Sequence record: MN648445
Direction: 5' to 3' (one strand)
DNA length: 64,000 nucleotides
Source of the DNA: Escherichia phage FP43
The notes under the pieces were generated by a model. It did not search any database. It was not told where the DNA came from and saw only the letters and a list, made by a program, of their open reading frames with translations. Shown piece by piece: positions 2,049 through 55,280 of the stretch; positions within the stretch are counted from its first letter, which is position 1; each line of letters begins with the position of its first letter. The position numbers were made by a program, and so were the translations under genes.

Positions 2049-2600
2049 TTACTTAAAGATATTTATAATCGCTTTGATAATAGATTTGTTTTCAAGGTCA
2101 GGGAATTTAGGGAATTCGCCGCCAAGATGTTCATGTTTTTCTAAAAGGGCAAAGAATTTTTTGAGCTCTTTAAATTTTCGTTTTTCTTCTCTATTAGCAA
2201 CCTCTGCGTCAATAAGAGAACTTAAAACACTGAATAATTTATAGAGTTCATGAATTTTCTTATCACGTTGAACTACTCGTTTATATGCTTCATCTTCCTT
2301 CCACCCGTCGTCGGTCCAAATGTCAAATTCACCAGGTTCTTCTGTAGTAACATTTTGAAGAGCACCTGGAGTGTCAATAACAATTTTTTGCTTATCATAT
2401 GTCCATACTGTTTTTCCTCGATGGTCTTCAACATATACCCATTCTTGCTCGCGTTCGTCAAATATAACAGCATAGCCTTCTTTAGGGTCTAAAGGTTTTT
2501 TTGGTGTCGAATGAGCTGGAAATCCTACGCCTTTTAATGGTTTATAATTTTCTTCTTTGTAAAATTCTTTAGTGTCAAAATAATAGTGATAGAGTTTCAT
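2049..2600 (-). CDS. 38: gp38 long tail fiber assembly protein (T4-type chaperone)
   Basis: 183 aa, same length as T4 gp38; immediately downstream of gene 37. Confidence 0.85.
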   Translation of the reverse strand: MKLYHYYFDTKEFYKEENYKPLKGVGFPAHSTPKKPLDPKEGYAVIFDEREQEWVYVEDHRGKTVWTYDKQKIVIDTPGALQNVTTEEPGEFDIWTDDGWKEDEAYKRVVQRDKKIHELYKLFSVLSSLIDAEVANREEKRKFKELKKFFALLEKHEHLGGEFPKFPDLENKSIIKAIINIFK

Positions 2601-2603
2601 ATT

Positions 2604-2625
2604 ATAAAAAGGGACAGAAGTCCCT
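2604..2625 (-). terminator. hairpin + U-tract between genes 37 and 38
   Basis: GGGAC-AGAA-GTCCC (2611-2625) followed by a T-run on the minus strand. Confidence 0.5.
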
Positions 2626-2630
2626 TCTCC

Positions 2631-5600
2631 TTATGCTAAACGAACGATATAGTTAAAAGCAACGTTTTTAACAGTGTTTTCTGTATTTCCTGTGGCATTT
2701 ACAGTTATTGTATGGCCATGGGAACCAATTGCAACAGTATGAGAATGAGCACCAATACCCACCGAATGGGTATGAGCACCAATACCTACCGTATGAGCAT
2801 GGTTACCCGTAGAGCTAGTAGTTCCTGACCAACTATGGGTGTGGGCACCGTCATTTGATGTTTTACCGACCTTAGTTGCTAAAGTCGAACCAGTGATACC
2901 TGAGTTAATTTTAGCATATGAGTTTGCACCTATCGTAGTAACCCCGTCTCTAAACAAATCGTCTGCCCATGCAGCAGTGACCTGTGGACCTGAACGCGCG
3001 TGTTGGTGAGCTCCTGCGGAACTAGTATTACCACTCACTGTATGGTTATGGTTACCAGTGGTATTACTGGTCTTAGTACCATAATCAAAGCTTGAAGTCG
3101 TTTTGCTACCGTAATCAAAACTAGAAGTGGTCTTAGTACCCAAATCTGTGTTTGATGCACTTGCACTATGGCTATGTGACTTAACACCGTCTGCTTCTGT
3201 ACTTAATACAGCGCGCCCAGATGGTTTACCCTTGATAGTTTGACCACGCATATCAGGCAGAGCGCCAGAAGGATACACCGCAGCTAACTTAGGATACAAG
3301 CCAGTATCAAATGTTTGGCCTTCCATTATGGCATAACCTTCAGGAGGTGTATCGGTAGGCCAAGGAATCGGAGCACCAATTGGGTAACTCGAGACAATAT
3401 CCGTTTTAAGGTTATTTATTGTGGTATTCAAGTTAGCAAAGTTGCCAGAACCACCAGTAATATTACCATCAGTACCGAATTGAGCATTACCAACTTTTAA
3501 TGGTTTAGTAATATCGACAGAATCAGAGTTTAATGCAATACCATGTGAATATGTGTAGCTGTGCATACGAACGACGTTGCCGCCATCTCCAATACCTAAA
3601 TACCATTTCGGAACATCTGCTTTACGTCCTTGAATGAAGTTAGAAGACTCTTGTGTTGGAGCATTTATTCTAATAGCATCTGATGCCATATTTACTGTTA
3701 TGCGTTGACCAGCCGTAGTTCCAGCCGCTTCTACTTTAAATCTACCGCCGCCGATATCTACATCATGATCCATGGAAACTTTACCAGTACTTAATGTAAT
3801 ATAGAACGGACGTAAATTAGAAATACCACCTGATTCACCAACATTCTGTGGAGTTGGAATAATATAAAGCTTATCTTCAGAACGACGGAAAATAGCCCCG
3901 TATTCAGCATCGTAAATACGGAAAGCATCAGCAGTCCCGCCAATTTTAACCTGTCCAGTAATTGAGGCACCACCTTGAACAAACAATCCATTATTCATTG
4001 TAACGTTGCCAACTAGAGTGCTTAATCCGTTAACTCTAAGACTTCCGTCGGTTATTAAGCTTCCTCTAGCATTAACCTGTCCATTGAACTGAGTTACAAC
4101 AGGGCCTGTAGTTTCAGAACCGGTCGGAGCTACGCGTTGAGAATAGAAATAATAACCTTGGCCATCAGAAACCTCAAATACGGTTTCTCGAGCTTTATCA
4201 CCAGTAGCATTAAATGAGTTACCCCATGCTTTCACGGTCACATAACTTTTGTTCTGACCTGCACGAGTACCGCCTTCCCAAAGGATTTGTTTGGTGCCAT
4301 CAATACCTGAAGCCGCTTTAAAAACTAGAGAAGCATTAGTTCCATCACCATTAAAATATAATCCATTATTAAGTTTTAACGTTTGAACAGAAGCGATGGT
4401 ACCATCAGCACGCAAATTTAACGAATTTGAACCAGTTTTAATATCTAAAATGCCAGGCTCAACAAGAAGCCCATCACCCATACTAACGGACATACGACCA
4501 GTGCCACGGAAATAGTGATACATCTTGGCATTGCTGCTATAACCAATATGAGTCTGACCGTCACCGTTATTATTACCATCAACATCGGTACGCGCAGTAA
4601 ACATTGCTTGGTTGTTATTTGGGTAATCCCAAGTAGAACCAGAATCTCGACTATAACCAACCATCAATTTTTTAGTACTGTTAATACCGTTATTAAGAAT
4701 AGTGCCGGCAGAAATACCATTCGAAACTAAATCGATAACCCCGTCACGAACCCATTTAATACCAGTATCATTGTCACCAATTGCAATACCTTTACCAAAC
4801 GAAACCAATGGATAACGTCCTTGGTCACCAACATCAGCAAGACCTATACCTATCGAATTAGCAACAGACATACGCCCATCTGTGGTATAAGACCATTGAT
4901 AAACTTCAGCATTACGTCCCGTCCAATACGAAATATTCTGTGGTTTACCTGAACGAGCATCAGCAACTTCATGGAAAATAGCAGAAGAAACATGTCCGCG
5001 GAATTTACGAAGGTAGTTTATACCATTAGTATCCAAATCTGTTTCGGTTGGAGTATAGTGCCAAGTCGGTAATGAAACTAAATCATATGCAGTATCAATA
5101 TTAGTGTCCCAAGATTTAGTGCTCACATTGATATTTTTGGTAATAACTTTAGGACCAATTAAAGAACCAGCTTTAGTTTCAATATTACTTTGAGTAACTA
5201 AATATCCATTAGATACTAATAAACTTCCGGAATCAACTTGAAAATTACCGTTTCGATTAAAAGTCCAGTATTTTGAAGTCCCGGTTTCATCAATATAATG
5301 GAATTTAAAACTACCTTCGTTTACTAATGTACCAGCAGAAAAAGTTCCATCTTTATAGCGTTGTTTAATCAGTGGATGGTATTCTGAAACAGAAGTAGTT
5401 GAACTTAAATCTGTAAAGATAGGGGCTTTATTCGAATGTTGGTTAGCCCAAGCGCCATTTCCAGTGGTTTTAGGTAAAAATTCAATGTATTTTCCTGCAT
5501 AAACAAACTGATTTCCATTGAGATTATACGTGCCGTTTTGTAAATAATCGCCAGTTTGAGTTACATTACCGTTAATATCCCCACCCTTAGCAAAGCCTAG

Positions 5601-5755: not shown

Positions 5756-6421
5756 TTAATAATAGCCGAAATCTTGAACAGAATCTTTAATTACAATCTG
5801 GTCGAAACGAGGAACATGATTAGCCTCAGACGCCGGATTCTGTGAGAAAAAGTTTGGTGCTGTTAAAGTACCAGTCATGGTATCGCCTTTACGCAATACA
5901 CGGGAATTTGCGTTATCCGTAACAATATTTATTCGTCCATCAACATAATCTTTTCTTGTGAGATCATTTGCTGCAACCGGCGCAGTAGCGTTAGAACGGA
6001 CAGGACCAGTTGCATAAATACCACCTTTAGTGCTGATATCACCAGTACGAGTGTTAACAACAACAGTTCTACCTGCAGATCCTTGTGATGATTTAAAACC
6101 AATGCCATACCATGAAACAATATCAATATTTGCTGTATCAAAAGTAGCAGCATCGCCATTGCCAGGATAAATACCACTTTGATTTGTGTTATTTACGGCA
6201 TAAGGTACTTGCACACCATTATTAAATGTTACTCGAGCGGCATACGTACCACCATTAGCTTTAGAAACGAAATCGTTATCAGCCGCTTGTGGTTTATTAT
6301 ATTCTGAATAGAGTTTAAACGTTTTATACAGGACGTCATCACCTGCTGGCATTAAAGGGAAATTACCTTGATGCCATATAACAGCACCGCCAGTTGTACT
6401 ACCAGCTTTTAAATCGGCCAT
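5756..6421 (-). CDS. 36: gp36 long tail fiber distal connector
   Basis: 221 aa; length and position as T4 gp36. Confidence 0.85.
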
Positions 6422-6445: not shown

Positions 6446-6453
6446 TATTTATA
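6446..6453 (-). promoter_or_regulatory. late promoter TATAAATA for gene 36
   Basis: Exact TATAAATA on the minus strand, after the terminator hairpin and before the gene 36 RBS. Confidence 0.7.
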
Positions 6454-6461
6454 CAAAAATA

Positions 6462-6477
6462 GGAGACCGAAGTCTCC
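6462..6477 (-). terminator. hairpin terminator after gene 35
   Basis: GGAGAC-CGAA-GTCTCC; on the minus strand followed by TATTTTTG, then the gene 36 late promoter. Confidence 0.6.
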
Positions 6478-6483
6478 CTAAAT

Positions 6484-14781: not shown

Positions 14782-14804
14782 GGGAGACTTCGGTCTCCCT
14801 TTTG
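14782..14804 (+). terminator. rho-independent terminator after gene 32
   Basis: GGGAGAC-TTCG-GTCTCCC + TTTT. Confidence 0.8.
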
Positions 14805-14831
14805 GGCATCTGTAACTTACCTAAAAAAGTT

Positions 14832-14860
14832 GTTTACTTCCTCCAAGGACATGATACTAT
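14832..14860 (+). promoter_or_regulatory. early promoter cassette (PeSL-like)
   Basis: GTTTAC 14832-14837, N17, TACTAT 14855-14860; then CAACAACATGAGGAAA RBS block. Confidence 0.65.
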
Positions 14861-30303: not shown

Positions 30304-30326
30304 GGGAGACTTCGGTCTCCCTTTTG
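30304..30326 (+). terminator. rho-independent terminator after the small basic ORF
   Basis: GGGAGAC-TTCG-GTCTCCC + TTTTG. Confidence 0.8.
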
Positions 30327-30357
30327 TGCGTTTAGGGCAGAAAAAGTTTAAAAAGAT

Positions 30358-30386
30358 GTTTACTCTCCTGTAGGATGTGTTACTAT
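30358..30386 (+). promoter_or_regulatory. early promoter cassette
   Basis: GTTTAC 30358-30363, N17, TACTAT 30381-30386. Confidence 0.6.
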
Positions 30387-48892: not shown

Positions 48893-50311
48893 ATGGCTTT
48901 TACAGTTAATATAAATCCTAAAACACCTACTGGAGTTATAGGACAGACCCAGCAGTTTACTGCCACACCTAGTGGTCAGGCTGAAGGTGGAACTATTACA
49001 TATGCTTGGACTTTGGATGGTGTTCCGCAAGATGGAGCTGAAGCAACTTTTAGTTATGTACTAAAAGGACCTGCCGGTCAAAAGACTATTAAAGTAGTTG
49101 CAACAAATACAGTTCCAGAAGCTGAAGCTGAAACAGCAGAAACTACTGCAACTATCACAGTTAAAAATAAAACTCAGACAACTACTCTGGCTATAACTCC
49201 TGATAGCCCTGCTGCTGGAGTAATCGGAACAGCTGTTAAATTTACTGCGGCTTTAGCTTCTCAACCGTCAGGCGCATCTGCTACGTATCAATGGCACGTT
49301 GACGGTTCTCCTGTGAGCGAAGCAACTTCTGCTACATTCAATTACACTCCTACCACAAGCGGAGTTAAAAAAATTAAATGTGTAGCCCAAGTGACGGCAA
49401 CAGACTATGACACAAAAGAAGTTACTTCTAATGAAGTATCACTGACTGTTAATAAAAAGACACAGACAACTACCTTGGCAGTAACTCCTGATAGTCCTTC
49501 AGCTGGAGTAATTGGAACCCCAGTTCAATTTACTGCTGCCTTAGCTTCTCAACCGGCTGGAGCGTCTGCTACGTATCAGTGGTATGTAGATGATTCACAA
49601 GTTGGTGGAGAAACTAACTCTACATTTAATTATACTCCAACTACAAGTGGAGTAAAAAGAATTAAATGCGTAGCCCAAGTAACTGCTGAAAATTACAATG
49701 AAAAGGAAGTTACTTCTAATGAAGTATCATTAACGGTTAATAAGAAGTCAATGAATCCACAGGTTACATTGACTCCTCCTTCTATTAACGTTCAGCAAGA
49801 TGCTTCAGCTACATTTACCGCTAATGTCACTGATGCTCCAGAAGAAGCGCAAATTGAATATTCATGGAAGAAAGATTCTTCTCCTGTAGAAGGGTCAACT
49901 AATGTATATACCGTTGATACTTCATCTGTTGGAAGTCAAACTATTGAAGTGACTGCCATCGTTACTGCAGATGACTATGATAGCAAAACTATTACAGCAG
50001 AAGGTCAAGTTCAAGTGACTGATAAAGTTGCTCCGGAACCAGAAGGTGAATTACCTTATGTTCATCCTCTTCCACATCGTACTTCAGCTTACATCTGGTG
50101 CGGTTGGTGGGTTATGGATGAAATCCAAAAAATGACTGAAGAAGGTAAAGATTGGAAAATTGACGATCCAGATAGTAAATACTACCTGCATCGTTATACG
50201 CTTCAGAAGATGATGAAAGACTATCCGGAAGTTGATGTTCAAGAATCACGTAATGGATACGTCATCAATAAAACTGCTTTAGAAACTGGTATCATCTATA
50301 CATATCCATAA
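48893..50311 (+). CDS. hoc: Hoc outer capsid protein with four Ig-like domains
   Basis: 472 aa; four ~95-aa Ig-like repeats plus a C-terminal domain. Confidence 0.8.
   Translation: MAFTVNINPKTPTGVIGQTQQFTATPSGQAEGGTITYAWTLDGVPQDGAEATFSYVLKGPAGQKTIKVVATNTVPEAEAETAETTATITVKNKTQTTTLAITPDSPAAGVIGTAVKFTAALASQPSGASATYQWHVDGSPVSEATSATFNYTPTTSGVKKIKCVAQVTATDYDTKEVTSNEVSLTVNKKTQTTTLAVTPDSPSAGVIGTPVQFTAALASQPAGASATYQWYVDDSQVGGETNSTFNYTPTTSGVKRIKCVAQVTAENYNEKEVTSNEVSLTVNKKSMNPQVTLTPPSINVQQDASATFTANVTDAPEEAQIEYSWKKDSSPVEGSTNVYTVDTSSVGSQTIEVTAIVTADDYDSKTITAEGQVQVTDKVAPEPEGELPYVHPLPHRTSAYIWCGWWVMDEIQKMTEEGKDWKIDDPDSKYYLHRYTLQKMMKDYPEVDVQESRNGYVINKTALETGIIYTYP
49163..49738 (+). repeat. tandem duplication of ~288 bp within hoc (two adjacent Ig-like domain units)
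   Basis: Units about 49163-49450 and 49451-49738 align over long stretches (roughly 80 percent identity by eye); the encoded 96-aa domains are near-identical. Confidence 0.7.
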
Positions 50312-50412: not shown

Positions 50413-50607
50413 ATGAGAGCTGAAGTTGAAGTTTATACATTACATGAGGCGGGATTTTCATTCGTAGAAATTGCTCAAAAAATTGGTTTACAACCTAAAG
50501 AAGTTGGATTACTATGGACTAAAGCCGAGACAGCTCGGTCAAAGTTTAAAGCAAAAGAAAAAGTTGTATACCGTAAACGTTTGATTAACAAAAAGGTGAA
50601 GAAATGA
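50413..50607 (+). CDS. hypothetical small basic protein with HTH-like segment (64 aa)
   Basis: GFSFVEIAQKIGLQPKEVG resembles a helix-turn-helix; basic C-terminus. Confidence 0.45.
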   Translation: MRAEVEVYTLHEAGFSFVEIAQKIGLQPKEVGLLWTKAETARSKFKAKEKVVYRKRLINKKVKK

Positions 50608-50855
50608 GTTTTGCACAGGAATTAAGAGAAAGGGCTCTGGCCACTAAGGCCAATTTGTTGAGTGATTTTATTACTAACTTCTCTGTGATGGCAGAGAAAG
50701 CCGCTGACAAAGGCCAGACACAATTCACGTACTATCCGTCAAAGAATGATTTAACTATCACCGAGCAAATCGGTCAATGGCTTCGTGATAACGGCTTTCA
50801 GTACAAAATTAATCACGACCAACGTGATGGACATTGGATAGAAATCAAGTTCTAA
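50604..50855 (+). CDS. hypothetical protein (83 aa)
   Basis: ATG overlapping the upstream stop. Confidence 0.45.
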   Translation: MSFAQELRERALATKANLLSDFITNFSVMAEKAADKGQTQFTYYPSKNDLTITEQIGQWLRDNGFQYKINHDQRDGHWIEIKF

Positions 50856-52005: not shown

Positions 52006-53289
52006 TTATTCATCTATAATAATTTTAGGCAATTTAACACCGAGTAAAACAGACAAGTCTGAACGTCCTGCCATTTTATCCATGTCCCCGCCATCAATTA
52101 CTCTCGCTTCTTTTTCATCTTTTGCTACTGTGTAAGGATTTGCTGATAAAGCATATCTAACCAATAAACCTATAGACGGTTGTAAGCTTTCCGGATCAAC
52201 TACAACTTTAAATGCACCGACATGTTCCGGGTCGTCTAAATCCATTCCTTCAGTGTATGGAGCATAAAAGATGGACCCTACAATCTCTTTTTCGCCGATA
52301 TTTTCTACAACACCCACAATAACATAATCTAACGGACTGTTGGTATCGCAGTAAAGAGGTAATCCATTTGCCAAGAATCCATAAGCATTTTGTGAAAGAT
52401 ACTTATCATCTTCCGGCTTATGTTTTAACCAACCAGAAGCAGCAAGAATAGCAGCTGCACGAGCTGAAGCTACGCAAAACGTTGCAGTATAAGTTGACTC
52501 TTTTTGGATATGCGAAACCATTTCACACACCATTCGATATAACGAACGACCTGCTTCCGGAGCAGATGCATAACTCAAGTCAATAAATCCGGTGTCAGTA
52601 ATTCCAGTAACTTTATAACGTTTAGATACAGTAATTAAAGACTGAAGAATATCTTTATTAATTTCATCAGCCATTTCAGTAGCAAGCAAATCTTCTAAGA
52701 AGTTAGGGGCATCAAATCCATTCGCTTCTAAATCTTGCGCTAATTCAACCGTGAGGCCGGTTTTAAGTTTACGAGATTTGACTGAAGTTTGCCATTTATT
52801 AATCTGGAATCTTGCATCAGAAATTTCGCTACCAGAGCTTTCAAATTTGCTTGTTACCGCTGCATCTGAAAATAGCCGTACCTTTAAATGAACGACCGCA
52901 ATCTGAAGAGCTAATTCTAGATCACTTTCCTGAATATCTGCAAACGGCGTATCTTCTAACACTTTATAGACGATATTATTATATTTGAAAAAATCACCTT
53001 TATTTAGTGTGACTTTTGATTCTTCTGTGAGCTCAGTAATTTTTTCTCGGTCTACATATCCAGCTTCGCCTGCATAAGTAGCACCAGTTTTAAATGTTAA
53101 TTCGTTGTCTGGGTTAAGATATTTAATACCATAAAAAGCAGCAACAGGTTGATTAGTTCTTTGTGTTGCCACAATGTCAGAATATATTAATTTAGTCGTA
53201 GCGCGAGTCAAAGCAACGAGATTTGGGCGACCGATTGAGTTGCTAGTAGACGTTGTAGATTCACGCAATAATTTTTGGATTTTACTCAT
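52006..53289 (-). CDS. 24: gp24 head vertex protein
   Basis: 427 aa as in T4; similar to gp23. Confidence 0.9.
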   Translation of the reverse strand: MSKIQKLLRESTTSTSNSIGRPNLVALTRATTKLIYSDIVATQRTNQPVAAFYGIKYLNPDNELTFKTGATYAGEAGYVDREKITELTEESKVTLNKGDFFKYNNIVYKVLEDTPFADIQESDLELALQIAVVHLKVRLFSDAAVTSKFESSGSEISDARFQINKWQTSVKSRKLKTGLTVELAQDLEANGFDAPNFLEDLLATEMADEINKDILQSLITVSKRYKVTGITDTGFIDLSYASAPEAGRSLYRMVCEMVSHIQKESTYTATFCVASARAAAILAASGWLKHKPEDDKYLSQNAYGFLANGLPLYCDTNSPLDYVIVGVVENIGEKEIVGSIFYAPYTEGMDLDDPEHVGAFKVVVDPESLQPSIGLLVRYALSANPYTVAKDEKEARVIDGGDMDKMAGRSDLSVLLGVKLPKIIIDE

Positions 53290-53315: not shown

Positions 53316-53323
53316 TATTTATA
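53316..53323 (-). promoter_or_regulatory. late promoter for gene 24
   Basis: Minus-strand TATAAATA about 27 nt upstream of the gene 24 ATG. Confidence 0.65.
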
Positions 53324-53329
53324 AAGATT

Positions 53330-53359
53330 GTTTACAACGTATTTGGTATGTGATACTAT
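53330..53359 (+). promoter_or_regulatory. early promoter cassette between genes 24 and 23
   Basis: GTTTAC 53330-53335, N18, TACTAT 53354-53359. Confidence 0.6.
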
Positions 53360-53389
53360 AGACTTATCAACTACAGAGGAGTAAACAAA

Positions 53390-53659
53390 ATGACTAAAGC
53401 ACGTTTCTTACGAGATACTTTAAAAGTTCTGGAAGCTGAAGCAGTTAAGTTAGTAGAAAAATATGGTGCAAAAGTTAATGGTAATGCCTTCAACAAAGTA
53501 TGGATGAAAGTTGATTCTGAAGCTCGAGCTAAAGGTTATTGGGCCACTGATAAACTTGCATCATTCAAAAACAAAGACGGTTCTCCAGCATATGTCCAAG
53601 AAGGTATGCCTAATTGGCAAAATATTTTGAAAACTTACATCGAAATTGCACAGAAATAA
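53390..53659 (+). CDS. hypothetical protein (89 aa)
   Basis: ATG ORF with promoter cassette and RBS GAGGAG, between late genes 24 and 23. Confidence 0.5.
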   Translation: MTKARFLRDTLKVLEAEAVKLVEKYGAKVNGNAFNKVWMKVDSEARAKGYWATDKLASFKNKDGSPAYVQEGMPNWQNILKTYIEIAQK

Positions 53660-53669
53660 AACCAAAAAT

Positions 53670-53687
53670 GGGAGACCGAAGTCTCCC
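53670..53687. terminator. bidirectional terminator between ORF 53390..53659 (+) and gene 23 (-)
   Basis: GGGAGAC-CGAA-GTCTCCC flanked by A/T runs. Confidence 0.75.
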
Positions 53688-53711
53688 AAAATAAGATTTA
53701 ATCAATTAAGA

Positions 53712-55280
53712 TTAGATGCCTTTTACATATACACGGCGGAAGTAAGCGTTCTTACCAAGGCTGTTCAGGATAGACGGCATACCGGACTGGATGCGAGCAC
53801 CTGGAGCCTGCAGGGAACTTTCAGCAAACGGGTTAACACCGATACCGTAACGAGTTTTAAAGCCCATTACCGGCTGGAAGTTCTTAGGATCGGAACCACG
53901 CAGTGGGGTAAGTGCAACGTAAGGAGCATAGTAGATACCTGCATCCATTTCGTTAGCGCCTTTGTAACCAACGGTGAAGTAATCCTGTTTAGCATACTGG
54001 TCGATGTATACGCGGTATTTACCACCAAGTACACCGGCAAATACAGACTTAGTAGTGTCGGTATTAAAACCAGAAGCCAGACCCTGTGCAGCGTAAGAAA
54101 TACCAGTATCAACTGAAGCCAGTACGTTAACTACGTTACGGGAAGCGATAATGAAGTTACCTTCACCACGACCGGTTTGACGAGCAATTTCAACTGCTTC
54201 TTTATCAATCTGGAACAACAGAGATTTAAAGCTTTCACCGGCCCAACGAGCACCACGGATATCAATCGGGTCCTGGAAGTCAAATACACCAGCTTTAGAA
54301 CCCGGAGTCAGGGTCATACCGGATTTACCAACCTGTGCTGAGTAGTTAATCCAATCAACAACTTCACGGTTGATTTCTAGCATAATTTCTGTAGCCAGAA
54401 TACCGCTCAGTTCAGCATCAGCATCCATACCGTGTACTGCACGGAGGTCTTGTGCTAATTCGATAGAGTAAGCAGCTTTCAGCTGGCGAGATTTAGCTTC
54501 GATAACTTGTTTATCGATACGGAAGCCCATTTCATTCCATGGGTTATCGGTAGAACCGTTGAAACCTTCCTGGAGTTCAGCGATAGAAGTAGCCATACCT
54601 TCAGCGATTTCTACCAGTGCACCGGCTTCCATTTGTTTCTTAACTTCTGCATCTAATTTAGCTGCATCAGTTGCACCAGAATCAAGTGTTACGACAGCAG
54701 AAGCTTGCAAATATACAGTACCAGTTTCTTGGAAGAAGTGAGTATAGATATCACCTACAACAGTAGTAGTGTCAGCAGCCAGAGCTGGGAATTTCTTAGC
54801 AGCACCCTGACCAGAGAACATCGCGTCTGGGGCATACATCGGATGGAAAGCTTCTTTAGCGCCAGCAGCGATAGGGTCTTTACCATATACTGCACGGAGA
54901 GCAAATACCTGACCGGTCGGGCTGTTCATAGGCTGAACACCACAAATATCAAAAGCGATCAGATTAGGAATAGCACGACGAACCATACCCATAACTGCCG
55001 GCCCAATTTGGGTTACTGCACCAGAGGTTTGACCTGCTGCGATGTTCTGAGCATTATAACCATGGTCACCACCAATTTCAGCTTCGGTCAAGAAAGAACC
55101 AAATGCCTGAGCGATTTTCTCGTCTTTATATTCAGGGGATACTTCGAAATCTTTTTCCTGGTTTTCGAAGATTTTAGCGATAATAGCCTGCTTGCTATTA
55201 GCGATTTCCGGCAGGCCTTCACCTTCCAGCAGTTCTTTCCATTTGTCTACGAGCTGAGCTTTAGTTTTGATAGTAGTCAT
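53712..55280 (-). CDS. 23: gp23 major capsid protein
   Basis: 522 aa (T4 521); gene order. Confidence 0.95.
   Translation of the reverse strand: MTTIKTKAQLVDKWKELLEGEGLPEIANSKQAIIAKIFENQEKDFEVSPEYKDEKIAQAFGSFLTEAEIGGDHGYNAQNIAAGQTSGAVTQIGPAVMGMVRRAIPNLIAFDICGVQPMNSPTGQVFALRAVYGKDPIAAGAKEAFHPMYAPDAMFSGQGAAKKFPALAADTTTVVGDIYTHFFQETGTVYLQASAVVTLDSGATDAAKLDAEVKKQMEAGALVEIAEGMATSIAELQEGFNGSTDNPWNEMGFRIDKQVIEAKSRQLKAAYSIELAQDLRAVHGMDADAELSGILATEIMLEINREVVDWINYSAQVGKSGMTLTPGSKAGVFDFQDPIDIRGARWAGESFKSLLFQIDKEAVEIARQTGRGEGNFIIASRNVVNVLASVDTGISYAAQGLASGFNTDTTKSVFAGVLGGKYRVYIDQYAKQDYFTVGYKGANEMDAGIYYAPYVALTPLRGSDPKNFQPVMGFKTRYGIGVNPFAESSLQAPGARIQSGMPSILNSLGKNAYFRRVYVKGI

What the first reader, a model, noticed from the sequence alone, without database searches (positions are those of the whole stretch)
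53316..53687. Early-promoter-driven 89-aa ORF between late capsid genes 24 and 23, in place of a homing-endonuclease gene
Between the minus-strand genes 24 and 23 there is a plus-strand ORF (53390..53659) with a GTTTAC-N18-TACTAT cassette and GAGGAG RBS, closed by a bidirectional terminator. To my recollection T4 carries a seg-family homing endonuclease in this interval. Here the slot holds an unrelated small early gene, so the locus appears to be a recombination hot spot. The ORF is transcribed antisense to the surrounding late operon.
Basis: partly seen in the sequence, partly recalled or inferred. Interest (0 to 1): 0.45.

Follow-up and report, generated by a model that had tools for sequence, protein, structure and literature searches.

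The report
Small early gene between capsid genes
Between the two capsid genes of this RB69-like phage lies a real, already-annotated small gene of unknown function with an early-type promoter, occupying a swappable slot that in other T4-like phages is empty, holds the homing-endonuclease gene segD, or holds both.

Summary
The window comes from a Mosigvirus (99.8% identical to PhAPEC2). ORF 53390..53659(+) is a genuine 89-aa gene. It matches phrog_6003 and is annotated 'hypothetical' in about 240 phage records. dN/dS is 0.07-0.15. The GTTTAC-N18-TACTAT motif is the phage's early-promoter consensus: 9 copies, all on the + strand, 0.03 expected. It lies back-to-back with the gene-24 late promoter. 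The hairpin has its UUCG loop and T-run on the minus strand. It is therefore gene 23's terminator and is not truly bidirectional.

T4 does carry segD here, in the same antisense orientation. The ORF is not a recent replacement. Homologs at 33-36% identity fill the same slot in Dhakavirus and Gaprivervirus. The slot is polymorphic:
- empty in most Tequatrovirus, Jiaodavirus and Kanagawavirus;
- ORF alone;
- ORF plus segD (IME08, ATK47);
- segD alone (T4, MHG19).

Two cross-genus transfers of the cassette are visible, Dhaka to Tequatrovirus G28 and Dhaka to Mosigvirus ATK47.

The protein is basic (pI 9.6). Its predicted structure is three helices plus a beta-hairpin, with no known relatives. Its function is unknown. 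I infer an early accessory protein that interacts with the host. The RB69 promoter was predicted in 2006. Interest is modest.

The parts
52006..53289 (-). Gene 24 (capsid vertex protein), left border of the slot
   Evidence: ORF list. PhAPEC2 annotation. 95% aa identity to T4 gp24.
53316..53323 (-). Late promoter TATAAATA of gene 24 (the + strand reads TATTTATA)
   Evidence: Read from the sequence. The same element is present in T4, ime09, WG01, VR20 and MHG19. A late promoter Pl:109573 was predicted at the orthologous RB69 site (PMC1524935 supplement).
53330..53359 (+). Sigma-70 early-type promoter: -35 GTTTAC (53330-53335), extended -10 TG (53351-53352), -10 TACTAT (53354-53359). The inferred start site is near A53366.
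   Evidence: 9 copies, all on the + strand, 0.03 expected. Conserved upstream of the ORF or of segD in L001, L003, L004, L007, L009, L010 and L019-21. RB69 Pe:109605 was predicted by Nolan 2006.
53376..53381 (+). Shine-Dalgarno sequence GAGGAG, 8 nt upstream of the ATG
   Evidence: Read from the sequence.
53390..53659 (+). 89-aa gene (phrog_6003; RB69ORF188c/189c, JS98 gp173 and VR7 ORF190c family). It encodes a basic 10-kDa protein with a predicted helix-helix-beta hairpin-helix structure.
   Evidence: dN/dS is 0.07-0.15. AlphaFold pLDDT is 86.6. pI is 9.6.
53326..53664 (+). The cassette (early promoter plus ORF) that distinguishes the filled slot from the empty one
   Evidence: A query made from the window with 53326..53664 removed aligns as one gap-free 572-nt piece to T2, RB14, RB32, RB51 and others.
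53669..53688 (-). UUCG-tetraloop hairpin followed by a T-run (53668..53659). This is the intrinsic terminator of the gene 23 late mRNA. Its T-run overlaps the stop codon of the ORF.
   Evidence: The terminator scan calls it on the minus strand only. The identical 18-mer recurs at 6461(-), 14782(+) and 30304(+). ARNold and G28 annotations place the terminator on the gene 23 strand.
53712..55280 (-). Gene 23 (major capsid protein), right border of the slot
   Evidence: 94.6% aa identity to T4 gp23.

Best explanation
The feature is a genuine, non-essential accessory gene in a polymorphic slot between the late head genes 23 and 24.

Shown:
- A 339-nt cassette (early promoter plus ORF, 53326..53664) lies between two elements that all T4-like phages have here. 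These are the gene-24 late promoter and the UUCG hairpin that terminates gene-23 mRNA.
- The ORF is protein-coding and under purifying selection.
- It has occupied this slot, in this antisense orientation, in Mosig-, Dhaka- and Gapriverviruses. There it has diverged much faster than its neighbours.
- The slot's content is exchanged between genera. Exchange happens by recombination in the conserved ends of genes 23 and 24. It is also associated with insertion of a segD-type homing-endonuclease gene directly behind the ORF.

Inferred:
- Host RNA polymerase transcribes the gene in the first minutes of infection, from about A53366.
- The transcript ends or is stabilised at the hairpin inefficiently, because there is no U-tract on that strand.
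- The 10-kDa basic cytoplasmic product binds a host macromolecule, either a nucleic acid or an acidic protein. It would act as a host-takeover or counter-defence factor that matters in natural hosts but not in laboratory strains.

My confidence is about 0.9 in the anatomy and evolutionary account, about 0.7 in early transcription, and about 0.35 in the host-interaction role.
For: Gene reality:
- phrog_6003, E = 2e-45 over the full length.
- About 240 phage records carry it.
- The start codon and the NGNxxN and Q70 motifs are invariant.
- dN/dS is 0.07-0.15 between close alleles.

Synteny:
- The same slot and orientation are seen in PhAPEC2, VR20, WG01, 04086 and the metagenomic loci L015 and L019.

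Promoter:
- 9 copies, all on the + strand, against 0.03 expected.
- It is conserved upstream of the cargo in other phages.
- It was independently predicted in RB69.

Hairpin belongs to gene 23:
- The terminator is called on the minus strand only.
- Empty-slot phages keep the late promoter and the hairpin with only 17 nt between them.

Cassette limits:
- The ORF-deleted query aligns without a gap to T2, RB14 and RB32.

Exchange between genera:
- HZ_ZJUN4 and G28 (Tequatrovirus) have flanks 97-100% identical to T4/ime09 and a core 93-100% identical to Dhakavirus.
- ATK47 (Mosigvirus) has flanks 93-100% identical to the window and a core 95-100% identical to IME08/04086, including a SegD-like gene.

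Fast divergence:
- The ORF is 33-36% identical between genera, against 83% for gp23 and 69% for gp24.

Dispensability:
- The copy in the RB69 reference is frameshifted, as is the copy in phage mogra.

Not tied to T4 heads:
- Distant members lie in an array of small same-strand genes that includes a T7 gene-0.6-like ORF, in an unrelated phage contig (L017).
- Another lies just after a GpJ-type tail gene in a different phage contig (L018).

Protein properties:
- The basic pI of 9.6 is conserved across lineages.
Against: - No transcript data exist for any member.
- No homolog has a known function, and there is no Pfam, NCBIfam or PDB match.
- Fold searches return only generic helical bundles.
- Only one of the five AlphaFold models was confident, and the alignment behind it is shallow.
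- The host-interaction role rests only on timing class, size, charge, rapid divergence and horizontal spread.
- The frameshifts in RB69 and mogra could be sequencing errors rather than proof of dispensability.
- How the plus-strand transcript ends is unclear.
Confidence: 0.65

Rival explanations
1. The slot ancestrally held a seg-type homing-endonuclease gene, as in T4, and in this phage an unrelated small gene has recently replaced it.
For: - T4, PST and ECML-134 (53 records in all) and MHG19 hold segD alone in the same orientation. They share the same late/early promoter pair and hairpin frame.
Against: - The ORF family fills the slot in three genera and has diverged to 33-36% identity there.
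- Most Tequatroviruses, and the Jiaoda- and Kanagawaviruses examined, have an empty slot.
- In IME08, 04086 and ATK47, segD sits 3 nt after an intact ORF. This looks like insertion next to a resident gene.
- No segD remnant is present in the window.
Confidence: 0.07
2. The element acts mainly at the RNA level. The early plus-strand transcript reads through the weak hairpin and is antisense to the 3' end of gene 23 and to 23-to-24 read-through mRNA. It would tune late head-gene expression, and the ORF would be secondary.
For: - The plus strand has no U-tract after the hairpin.
- The early and late promoters lie 6 nt apart and must compete for the same DNA.
- The promoter is kept whatever the cargo is.
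Against: - There is strong purifying selection on the protein sequence.
- Protein motifs are conserved across 33%-identical lineages.
- Family members occur in unrelated phages with no gene 23 nearby.
- Most Tequatroviruses do well with no promoter here.
- In VR20 the hairpin has its T-run on the ORF strand, so read-through is not conserved.
Confidence: 0.1
3. The product is a head-assembly or virion accessory protein, placed between genes 23 and 24 because it works with them.
For: - Its position inside the head-gene cluster is conserved in three genera.
Against: - It has the opposite orientation and an early rather than late promoter.
- It is absent from T4, T2 and most Tequatroviruses, whose gp23 and gp24 are about 95% identical to those here.
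- It can be swapped for, or joined by, a homing endonuclease.
- A distant homolog lies in a non-structural gene array.
- Copies are disrupted in RB69 and mogra.
Confidence: 0.06
4. The ORF is a chance open frame in an intergenic spacer and encodes nothing.
For: - No functional annotation exists anywhere.
- The RB69 reference splits it into two small ORFs.
Against: - dN/dS is 0.07-0.15.
- The length and start codon are conserved at 33% identity across genera.
- It has a strong RBS and promoter.
- A confident fold prediction is matched independently by the BFVD model of a 31%-identical homolog, with TM 0.77.
Confidence: 0.02

Closest known systems
phrog_6003 / RB69ORF188c+189c / JS98 gp173 / VR7 ORF190c (hypothetical proteins of Tevenvirinae)
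   Same: It is the same gene family. The PHROG match is full-length at E = 2e-45. Database copies are 99-100% identical in about 120 Mosigvirus records and 30-38% identical in Dhaka- and Gapriverviruses, in the same slot.
   Different: Nothing differs; this is a member. The family has no assigned function. The RB69 reference copy is frameshifted into two annotated fragments.
T4 segD locus (free-standing GIY-YIG homing-endonuclease gene between genes 23 and 24)
   Same: - It uses the same slot and the same antisense orientation.
- It has the same frame: the late promoter of gene 24 back-to-back with an early-type promoter (ATTTAC-N17-TATTAT in T4, GTTTAC-N-TATAAT in MHG19).
- It ends at the same kind of UUCG hairpin after gene 23.
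   Different: - The cargo is unrelated: 89 aa with no GIY-YIG domain.
- Edgell et al. 2010 (PMC2988022) state that no segD-specific promoter was found. The comparison here suggests that T4 retains a one-mismatch copy of the slot's early promoter.
PeSL cassettes (promoter-early stem-loop) of T4-type phages, Arbiol et al. 2010 (PMC2839356) and Comeau et al. 2014 (PMC4122927)
   Same: - The building blocks are the same. The 18-nt stem-loop and the GTTTAC...TACTATAGAC promoter also form canonical stem-loop-then-promoter units at 14782-14860 and 30304-30386 in this window.
- The association with small variable ORFs and modular exchange is the same.
   Different: - Here the promoter lies upstream of the ORF and the stem-loop lies downstream and inverted, serving the opposing late gene. 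It is therefore not a composite PeSL.
- The two observed exchanges have breakpoints at the ends of genes 23 and 24, not in the promoter or stem-loop.
C(UUCG)G hairpins of T4 intercistronic regions (Tuerk et al. 1988; recalled from memory, not retrieved)
   Same: It is a GC stem closed by a UUCG tetraloop and followed by a U-run at the end of a highly expressed late gene.
   Different: None of note. This supports assigning the hairpin to gene 23 and not to the small ORF.

Membership tests
phrog_6003 (RB69ORF188c-like hypothetical proteins) | Significant full-length sequence similarity to the family profile | tested here: met
   E = 2.1e-45, residues 1-89 against profile positions 1-90 of 90. 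Database members are 99-100% identical.
phrog_6003 (RB69ORF188c-like hypothetical proteins) | Conserved genomic position between genes 24 and 23, on the opposite strand | tested here: met
   Seen in PhAPEC2, VR20, WG01, 04086, L015, L019, G28 and ATK47. Two distant members (P0009, P0011) lie elsewhere, in other phage types.
seg-type GIY-YIG homing endonuclease (as in T4 segD) | GIY-YIG catalytic domain or similarity to SegD | tested here: not met
   There is no Pfam hit other than a sub-threshold DUF4859. BLASTP against T4 SegD gives only a 17-residue chance match, E = 0.022.
T4-type early (sigma-70) promoter | -35 GTTTAC, 17±1 nt spacer, -10 TAnnnT, AT-rich upstream region, placed 5' of a gene on the early strand | tested here: met
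   Under the scanner's TTGACA-type -35 hexamer (TTTACA, 53331-53336) the spacer is 17 nt; counted from GTTTAC (53330-53335) it is 18 nt. There is a TG extended -10. There are 9 genome copies, all on the + strand. The RB69 ortholog was predicted as Pe:109605.
T4-type early (sigma-70) promoter | Transcription within the first minutes of infection, shut off later | not testable with these tools
   No Mosigvirus transcriptome was found.
Bidirectional intrinsic terminator | GC-rich hairpin followed by a U-tract on both strands | tested here: not met
   On the minus strand there are 8 bp, a UUCG loop and ATTTTTGGTTT. On the plus strand the tail is AAAATAAGATTT and no terminator is called. In Gaprivervirus VR20 the T-run is on the ORF strand.
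PeSL composite cassette (Arbiol 2010) | Stem-loop terminator immediately followed (tens of nt) by an early promoter on the same strand, between early genes | tested here: not met
   At this locus the promoter (53330) and the stem-loop (53669, inverted) are separated by the ORF. Canonical units do exist at 14782-14860 and 30304-30386.
PeSL composite cassette (Arbiol 2010) | Component sequences repeated around the genome and associated with variable ORFs | tested here: met
   The 18-mer stem-loop occurs 4 times and the promoter 9 times. The slot content varies between phages.

The most novel reading that the evidence does not exclude
The 89-aa protein would found an uncharacterised, fast-evolving family of early host-takeover or counter-defence factors with a fold unlike any solved structure. 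Its alleles would be carried between T4-like genera as passengers of segD homing. The ATK47 and IME08 arrangement (ORF plus segD, apparently one early-promoter unit) would be the vehicle for this. A corollary is that T4 segD, reported to lack a promoter, is driven by a degenerate copy of this slot's early promoter (ATTTAC-N17-TATTAT).
Probability: 0.3. Interest if true: 0.5.

Novelty: already known. Interest (0 to 1): 0.27.

Why it matters
The gene is already catalogued as a hypothetical protein, and its promoter was predicted in RB69 in 2006. The finding therefore adds no new kind of element.

What the follow-up adds is a clean, well-sampled example of how T4-like genomes vary inside an otherwise rigid late-gene block. 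A fixed regulatory frame (late promoter, early promoter, UUCG terminator) accepts alternative cargo. Whole-slot exchange is visible between genera, in one case together with a homing-endonuclease gene.

This gives three practical leads:
1. An easily testable candidate early accessory protein. It is dispensable in the laboratory, conserved in nature, and present in BASEL-collection Mosigviruses.
2. A natural system for measuring segD-linked co-conversion.
3. A candidate promoter for T4 segD.

Tried and rejected
1. Function by sequence.
- Pfam gave only DUF4859 below threshold.
- NCBIfam gave nothing.
- A PDB profile search gave nothing below E = 0.5.
- A Pfam scan of 11 family members gave no consistent family.

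2. Function by fold.
- Foldseek against PDB gave no hit below E = 0.39.
- BFVD returned only its own family.

3. Exhaustive profile search of 1.84 billion representatives.
- It found 7 clusters.
- The 655-aa hit P0013 is a repeated protein whose repeats recall cytochrome-b5-like domains (my recollection; not tested against a domain library). It matches only the Mosig-type beta-hairpin motif (W-T-x-K-L-A...K-x-G-x-P-A-Y) and is scored up by five repeats.
- Dhaka-type homologs lack that motif, so I rejected the hit as chance or convergent similarity.

4. The 'curcumin reductase' name on P0006 is a source mislabel. That protein is a 90-aa slot homolog.

5. PeSL-mediated insertion as the exchange mechanism. 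I considered it because the same stem-loop and promoter recur in the window. However, both mosaics have breakpoints at the gene 23 and 24 ends, so it is not needed for the observed events.

6. Literature.
- No paper mentions RB69ORF188c.
- No Mosigvirus transcriptome was found.
- The T4 omics paper does not mention segD in its main text; its supplements were not searched.
- The Sokolov 2018 SegD paper is not held.

7. A middle (MotA-box) promoter. I saw no TGCTT box upstream when reading the sequence.

Full report
**What is there.**
The window is from a Mosigvirus (RB69-like T4 relative). The 501 nt around the finding are 99.8% identical to phage PhAPEC2 and to more than 100 other records. Gene 24 (52006..53289) and gene 23 (53712..55280) are on the minus strand. 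Between them lies a plus-strand ORF, 53390..53659, of 89 aa.

It has a TG extended -10 element, and a GAGGAG ribosome-binding site lies 8 nt before the ATG. The promoter pattern occurs nine times in the window, always on the plus strand, against 0.03 expected by chance. It is therefore the phage's early-promoter consensus. Nolan et al. 2006 predicted an early promoter (Pe:109605) and a late promoter (Pl:109573) at the orthologous RB69 position (PMC1524935 supplements).

This is the late promoter of gene 24. It lies 6 nt from the early -35 element, so the two promoters are back-to-back.

**The terminator.**
The hairpin at 53669..53688 is called as an intrinsic terminator only on the minus strand. 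There it reads GGGAGAC-UUCG-GUCUCCC followed by AUUUUUGGUUU. On the plus strand the loop is CGAA and the tail is AAAAUAAGAUUU, although the stem still folds at -13.5 kcal/mol.

Phages with an empty slot keep this hairpin directly after gene 23. The PhAPEC2 and G28 annotators also place the terminator on the gene-23 strand. It is therefore gene 23's terminator, physically shared with the ORF but not bidirectional by sequence criteria. In Gaprivervirus VR20 a different hairpin has its T-run on the ORF strand, so this detail is not conserved.

**The gene is real.**
- It matches phrog_6003 over its full length, E = 2e-45, with function unknown.
- tblastn finds it in about 240 phage records. About 120 are Mosig-type at ≥80% identity and about 119 are at 30-38% identity. 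A reciprocal search with the Dhakavirus protein returns a set of almost the same size and organism make-up.
- In every T4-like genome inspected it lies between genes 24 and 23 on the opposite strand. These are PhAPEC2, VR20 (Gaprivervirus), WG01 and 04086 (Dhakavirus), and the metagenomic genomes L015 and L019.
- Invariant residues are M1, K3, F6, G31, N32, N35 and Q70.
- dN/dS between close alleles is 0.07-0.15.
- Between genera the ORF is 33-36% identical, against 83% for gp23 and 69% for gp24. It evolves much faster than its neighbours but under constraint.

The RB69 reference copy carries a +1 and a -1 indel and is annotated as two fragments, ORF188c and ORF189c. Phage mogra also has a split copy. 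If these changes are real, the gene is dispensable in the laboratory.

**The slot.**
T4 does carry segD here, also antisense to genes 23 and 24. The T4 sequence has the same frame. This is a TATAAATA late promoter, then ATTTAC-N17-TATTAT (one mismatch from the early consensus), then segD, then a GGGAACC-UUCG-GGUUCCC hairpin. Edgell et al. 2010 wrote that no segD-specific promoter could be identified (PMC2988022). The comparison here suggests a degenerate copy of the slot's early promoter.

Across Straboviridae I found five states:
1. **Empty.** This holds for most Tequatroviruses, and for the Jiaoda- and Kanagawaviruses examined. A query made from the window with 53326..53664 deleted aligns as one gap-free 572-nt piece to T2, RB14, RB32, RB51 and many others. 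This defines the cassette as early promoter plus ORF.
2. **ORF alone.** This is the state in Mosig-, Dhaka- and Gapriverviruses.
3. **ORF plus segD.** segD starts 3 nt after the ORF's stop codon. The two genes are apparently one unit behind the same early promoter, with no promoter motif evident between them. Examples are IME08, IME341, 04086 and ATK47.
4. **segD alone.** Examples are T4, PST and ECML-134 (53 records). The unclassified MHG19 also has this state, with a perfect GTTTAC...TATAAT promoter and the identical GGGAGAC hairpin.
5. **A seg-like gene in the sense orientation.** This occurs in Pseudotevenvirus GAP161.

**Exchange between genera.**
A group of records including HZ_ZJUN4, G28, EP01, KIT06, JE01, W143 and GEP001 carries a Dhakavirus-type cassette. 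HZ_ZJUN4 and G28 are classified as Tequatrovirus; the taxonomy of the others was not checked. In HZ_ZJUN4 the gene 24 and 23 flanks are 97-100% identical to T4 and ime09. The intergenic core is 93-100% identical to WG01 and IME08.

Mosigvirus ATK47 has flanks 93-100% identical to this window. Its core is 95-100% identical to Dhakavirus IME08 and 04086, comprising a Dhaka-type ORF plus an unannotated 219-aa SegD-like gene. LF82-3 and NRG-P0074 show the same half-match pattern.

In both mosaics the breakpoints lie at the ends of genes 24 and 23. This points to homologous recombination in the conserved flanks. In the ATK47 case it is plausibly initiated by the endonuclease, with co-conversion of the neighbouring ORF allele (inference).

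The ORF is the long-standing, common occupant, and segD is the rarer addition.

**The protein.**
The product is 10.1 kDa and hydrophilic, with pI 9.6. The pI is conserved in lineages that are only 33% identical. AlphaFold predicts helix 3-25, helix 31-48, a beta-hairpin at 56-70 and helix 76-88. The best model has pLDDT 86.6, but the other four models are weaker. The BFVD model of a 31%-identical homolog superposes at TM 0.77.

No solved structure or known family resembles it specifically. An exhaustive profile search of 1.84 billion representatives finds only seven clusters. Two of these lie outside T4-like phages:
- P0009 lies in an array of small same-strand genes that includes a T7 gene-0.6-like ORF (L017).
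- P0011 lies just after a GpJ-type tail gene in another phage type (L018).

The family is therefore a horizontally mobile accessory gene and not a T4 head component.

**How it most likely works.**
The anatomy, coding status, conservation and exchange are shown. The following steps are inferred:
- Unmodified host RNA polymerase starts at about A53366 in the first minutes of infection.
- The short monocistronic mRNA is translated from a strong RBS.
- Transcription is poorly terminated at the hairpin and may run antisense into the 3' end of gene 23.
- Later, when early promoters are shut off (an established T4 property, recalled and not tested here), the overlapping late promoter fires leftward into gene 24.

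The protein's role is inferred only from class properties. These are its early timing, small size, basic charge, rapid but constrained divergence, dispensability in laboratory strains and spread across phage types. Together they point to a host-takeover or counter-defence factor that binds a nucleic acid or an acidic host protein. I put this at about 0.35.

**Rivals.**
- Recent replacement of a homing-endonuclease gene: 0.07.
- RNA-level antisense regulator: 0.10.
- Head-assembly accessory protein: 0.06.
- Non-coding ORF: 0.02.

**Novelty and score.**
The gene is annotated in hundreds of records and belongs to a PHROG. Its promoter was predicted in 2006, and segD at this T4 site is textbook knowledge. 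I found no description of the slot's state series, the two cross-genus mosaics or the candidate segD promoter. They fit known paradigms (homing-endonuclease co-conversion and modular shuffling; PMC2839356, PMC4122927, PMC2988022). My verdict is that the feature is already known, and its interest is modest at 0.27.

Noticed in passing
window 14782-14860 and 30304-30386 (+): There are two canonical PeSL-like units. Each has the identical stem-loop GGGAGACTTCGGTCTCCC plus a T-run, followed 33-37 nt later by GTTTAC-N17-TACTATAGAC. Each lies between the end of one plus-strand ORF (14775; 30298) and the start of the next (14890; 30429).
   Followed up: partly
window 6446-6478 (-): A fourth copy of the stem-loop, with one mismatch, lies on the minus strand. 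It is followed by a T-run and then at once by a late promoter TATAAATA and a minus-strand gene start near 6421. This is a terminator plus late-promoter unit built from the same hairpin.
   Followed up: no
L023 (RB69 NC_004928) 4211-4633; record 109291-109531: The RB69 reference sequence has a +1 and a -1 indel and a cluster of substitutions in this gene. It is therefore annotated as two fragments, RB69ORF188c (41 aa) and RB69ORF189c (29 aa). This is either a pseudogene in the laboratory strain or old sequencing errors.
   Followed up: partly
L025 (Mosigvirus ATK47 NC_055708.1) 2536-3480: The 1087-nt interval between genes 24 and 23 has no annotated gene. It contains a Dhakavirus-type copy of the small ORF plus a 219-aa SegD-like GIY-YIG gene. 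Dhakavirus 04086 (L004, about 3770-4500) likewise has an unannotated segD.
   Followed up: yes
L006 (T4 NC_000866) about 3740-3790, minus strand: Upstream of T4 segD lies ATTTAC-N17-TATTAT with a TG extended -10, positionally homologous to the early promoter here. The 2010 review (PMC2988022) states that no segD-specific promoter was found.
   Followed up: partly
window 50486-50515 (+): One of the nine early-promoter matches lies inside the gene 24.3 homolog (50413..50607), just upstream of the 24.2 homolog (50604..50855).
   Followed up: no
L002, L003, L015, L019: Dhaka- and Gapriverviruses and two metagenomic relatives carry two tandem gp24 paralogs, whereas this window and T4 have one. L015 combines a Mosig-type ORF allele (61% identity) with the two-gp24 arrangement.
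   Followed up: no
window 48893-50311 (+): The Hoc homolog is 472 aa, against 376 aa for the annotated T4 hoc CDS. It contains visibly repeated sequence modules. That these are Ig-like is my recollection of Hoc and was not tested.
   Followed up: no
P0013 (655 aa, metagenomic): This protein has repeats that resemble cytochrome-b5-like domains (recalled, not tested). It matches residues 40-70 of the Mosig-type protein five times (W-T-x-K-L-A...G-x-P-A-Y). Dhaka-type homologs lack the motif, so I judged the match to be chance or convergent.
   Followed up: partly
L017 4657-4749: An approximately 80-nt stretch next to the distant homolog P0009 matches unannotated DNA of 84-kb Erwinia phages (vB_Eam-MM7 group) at 85-89% identity. 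It may be a tRNA or another small RNA.
   Followed up: no
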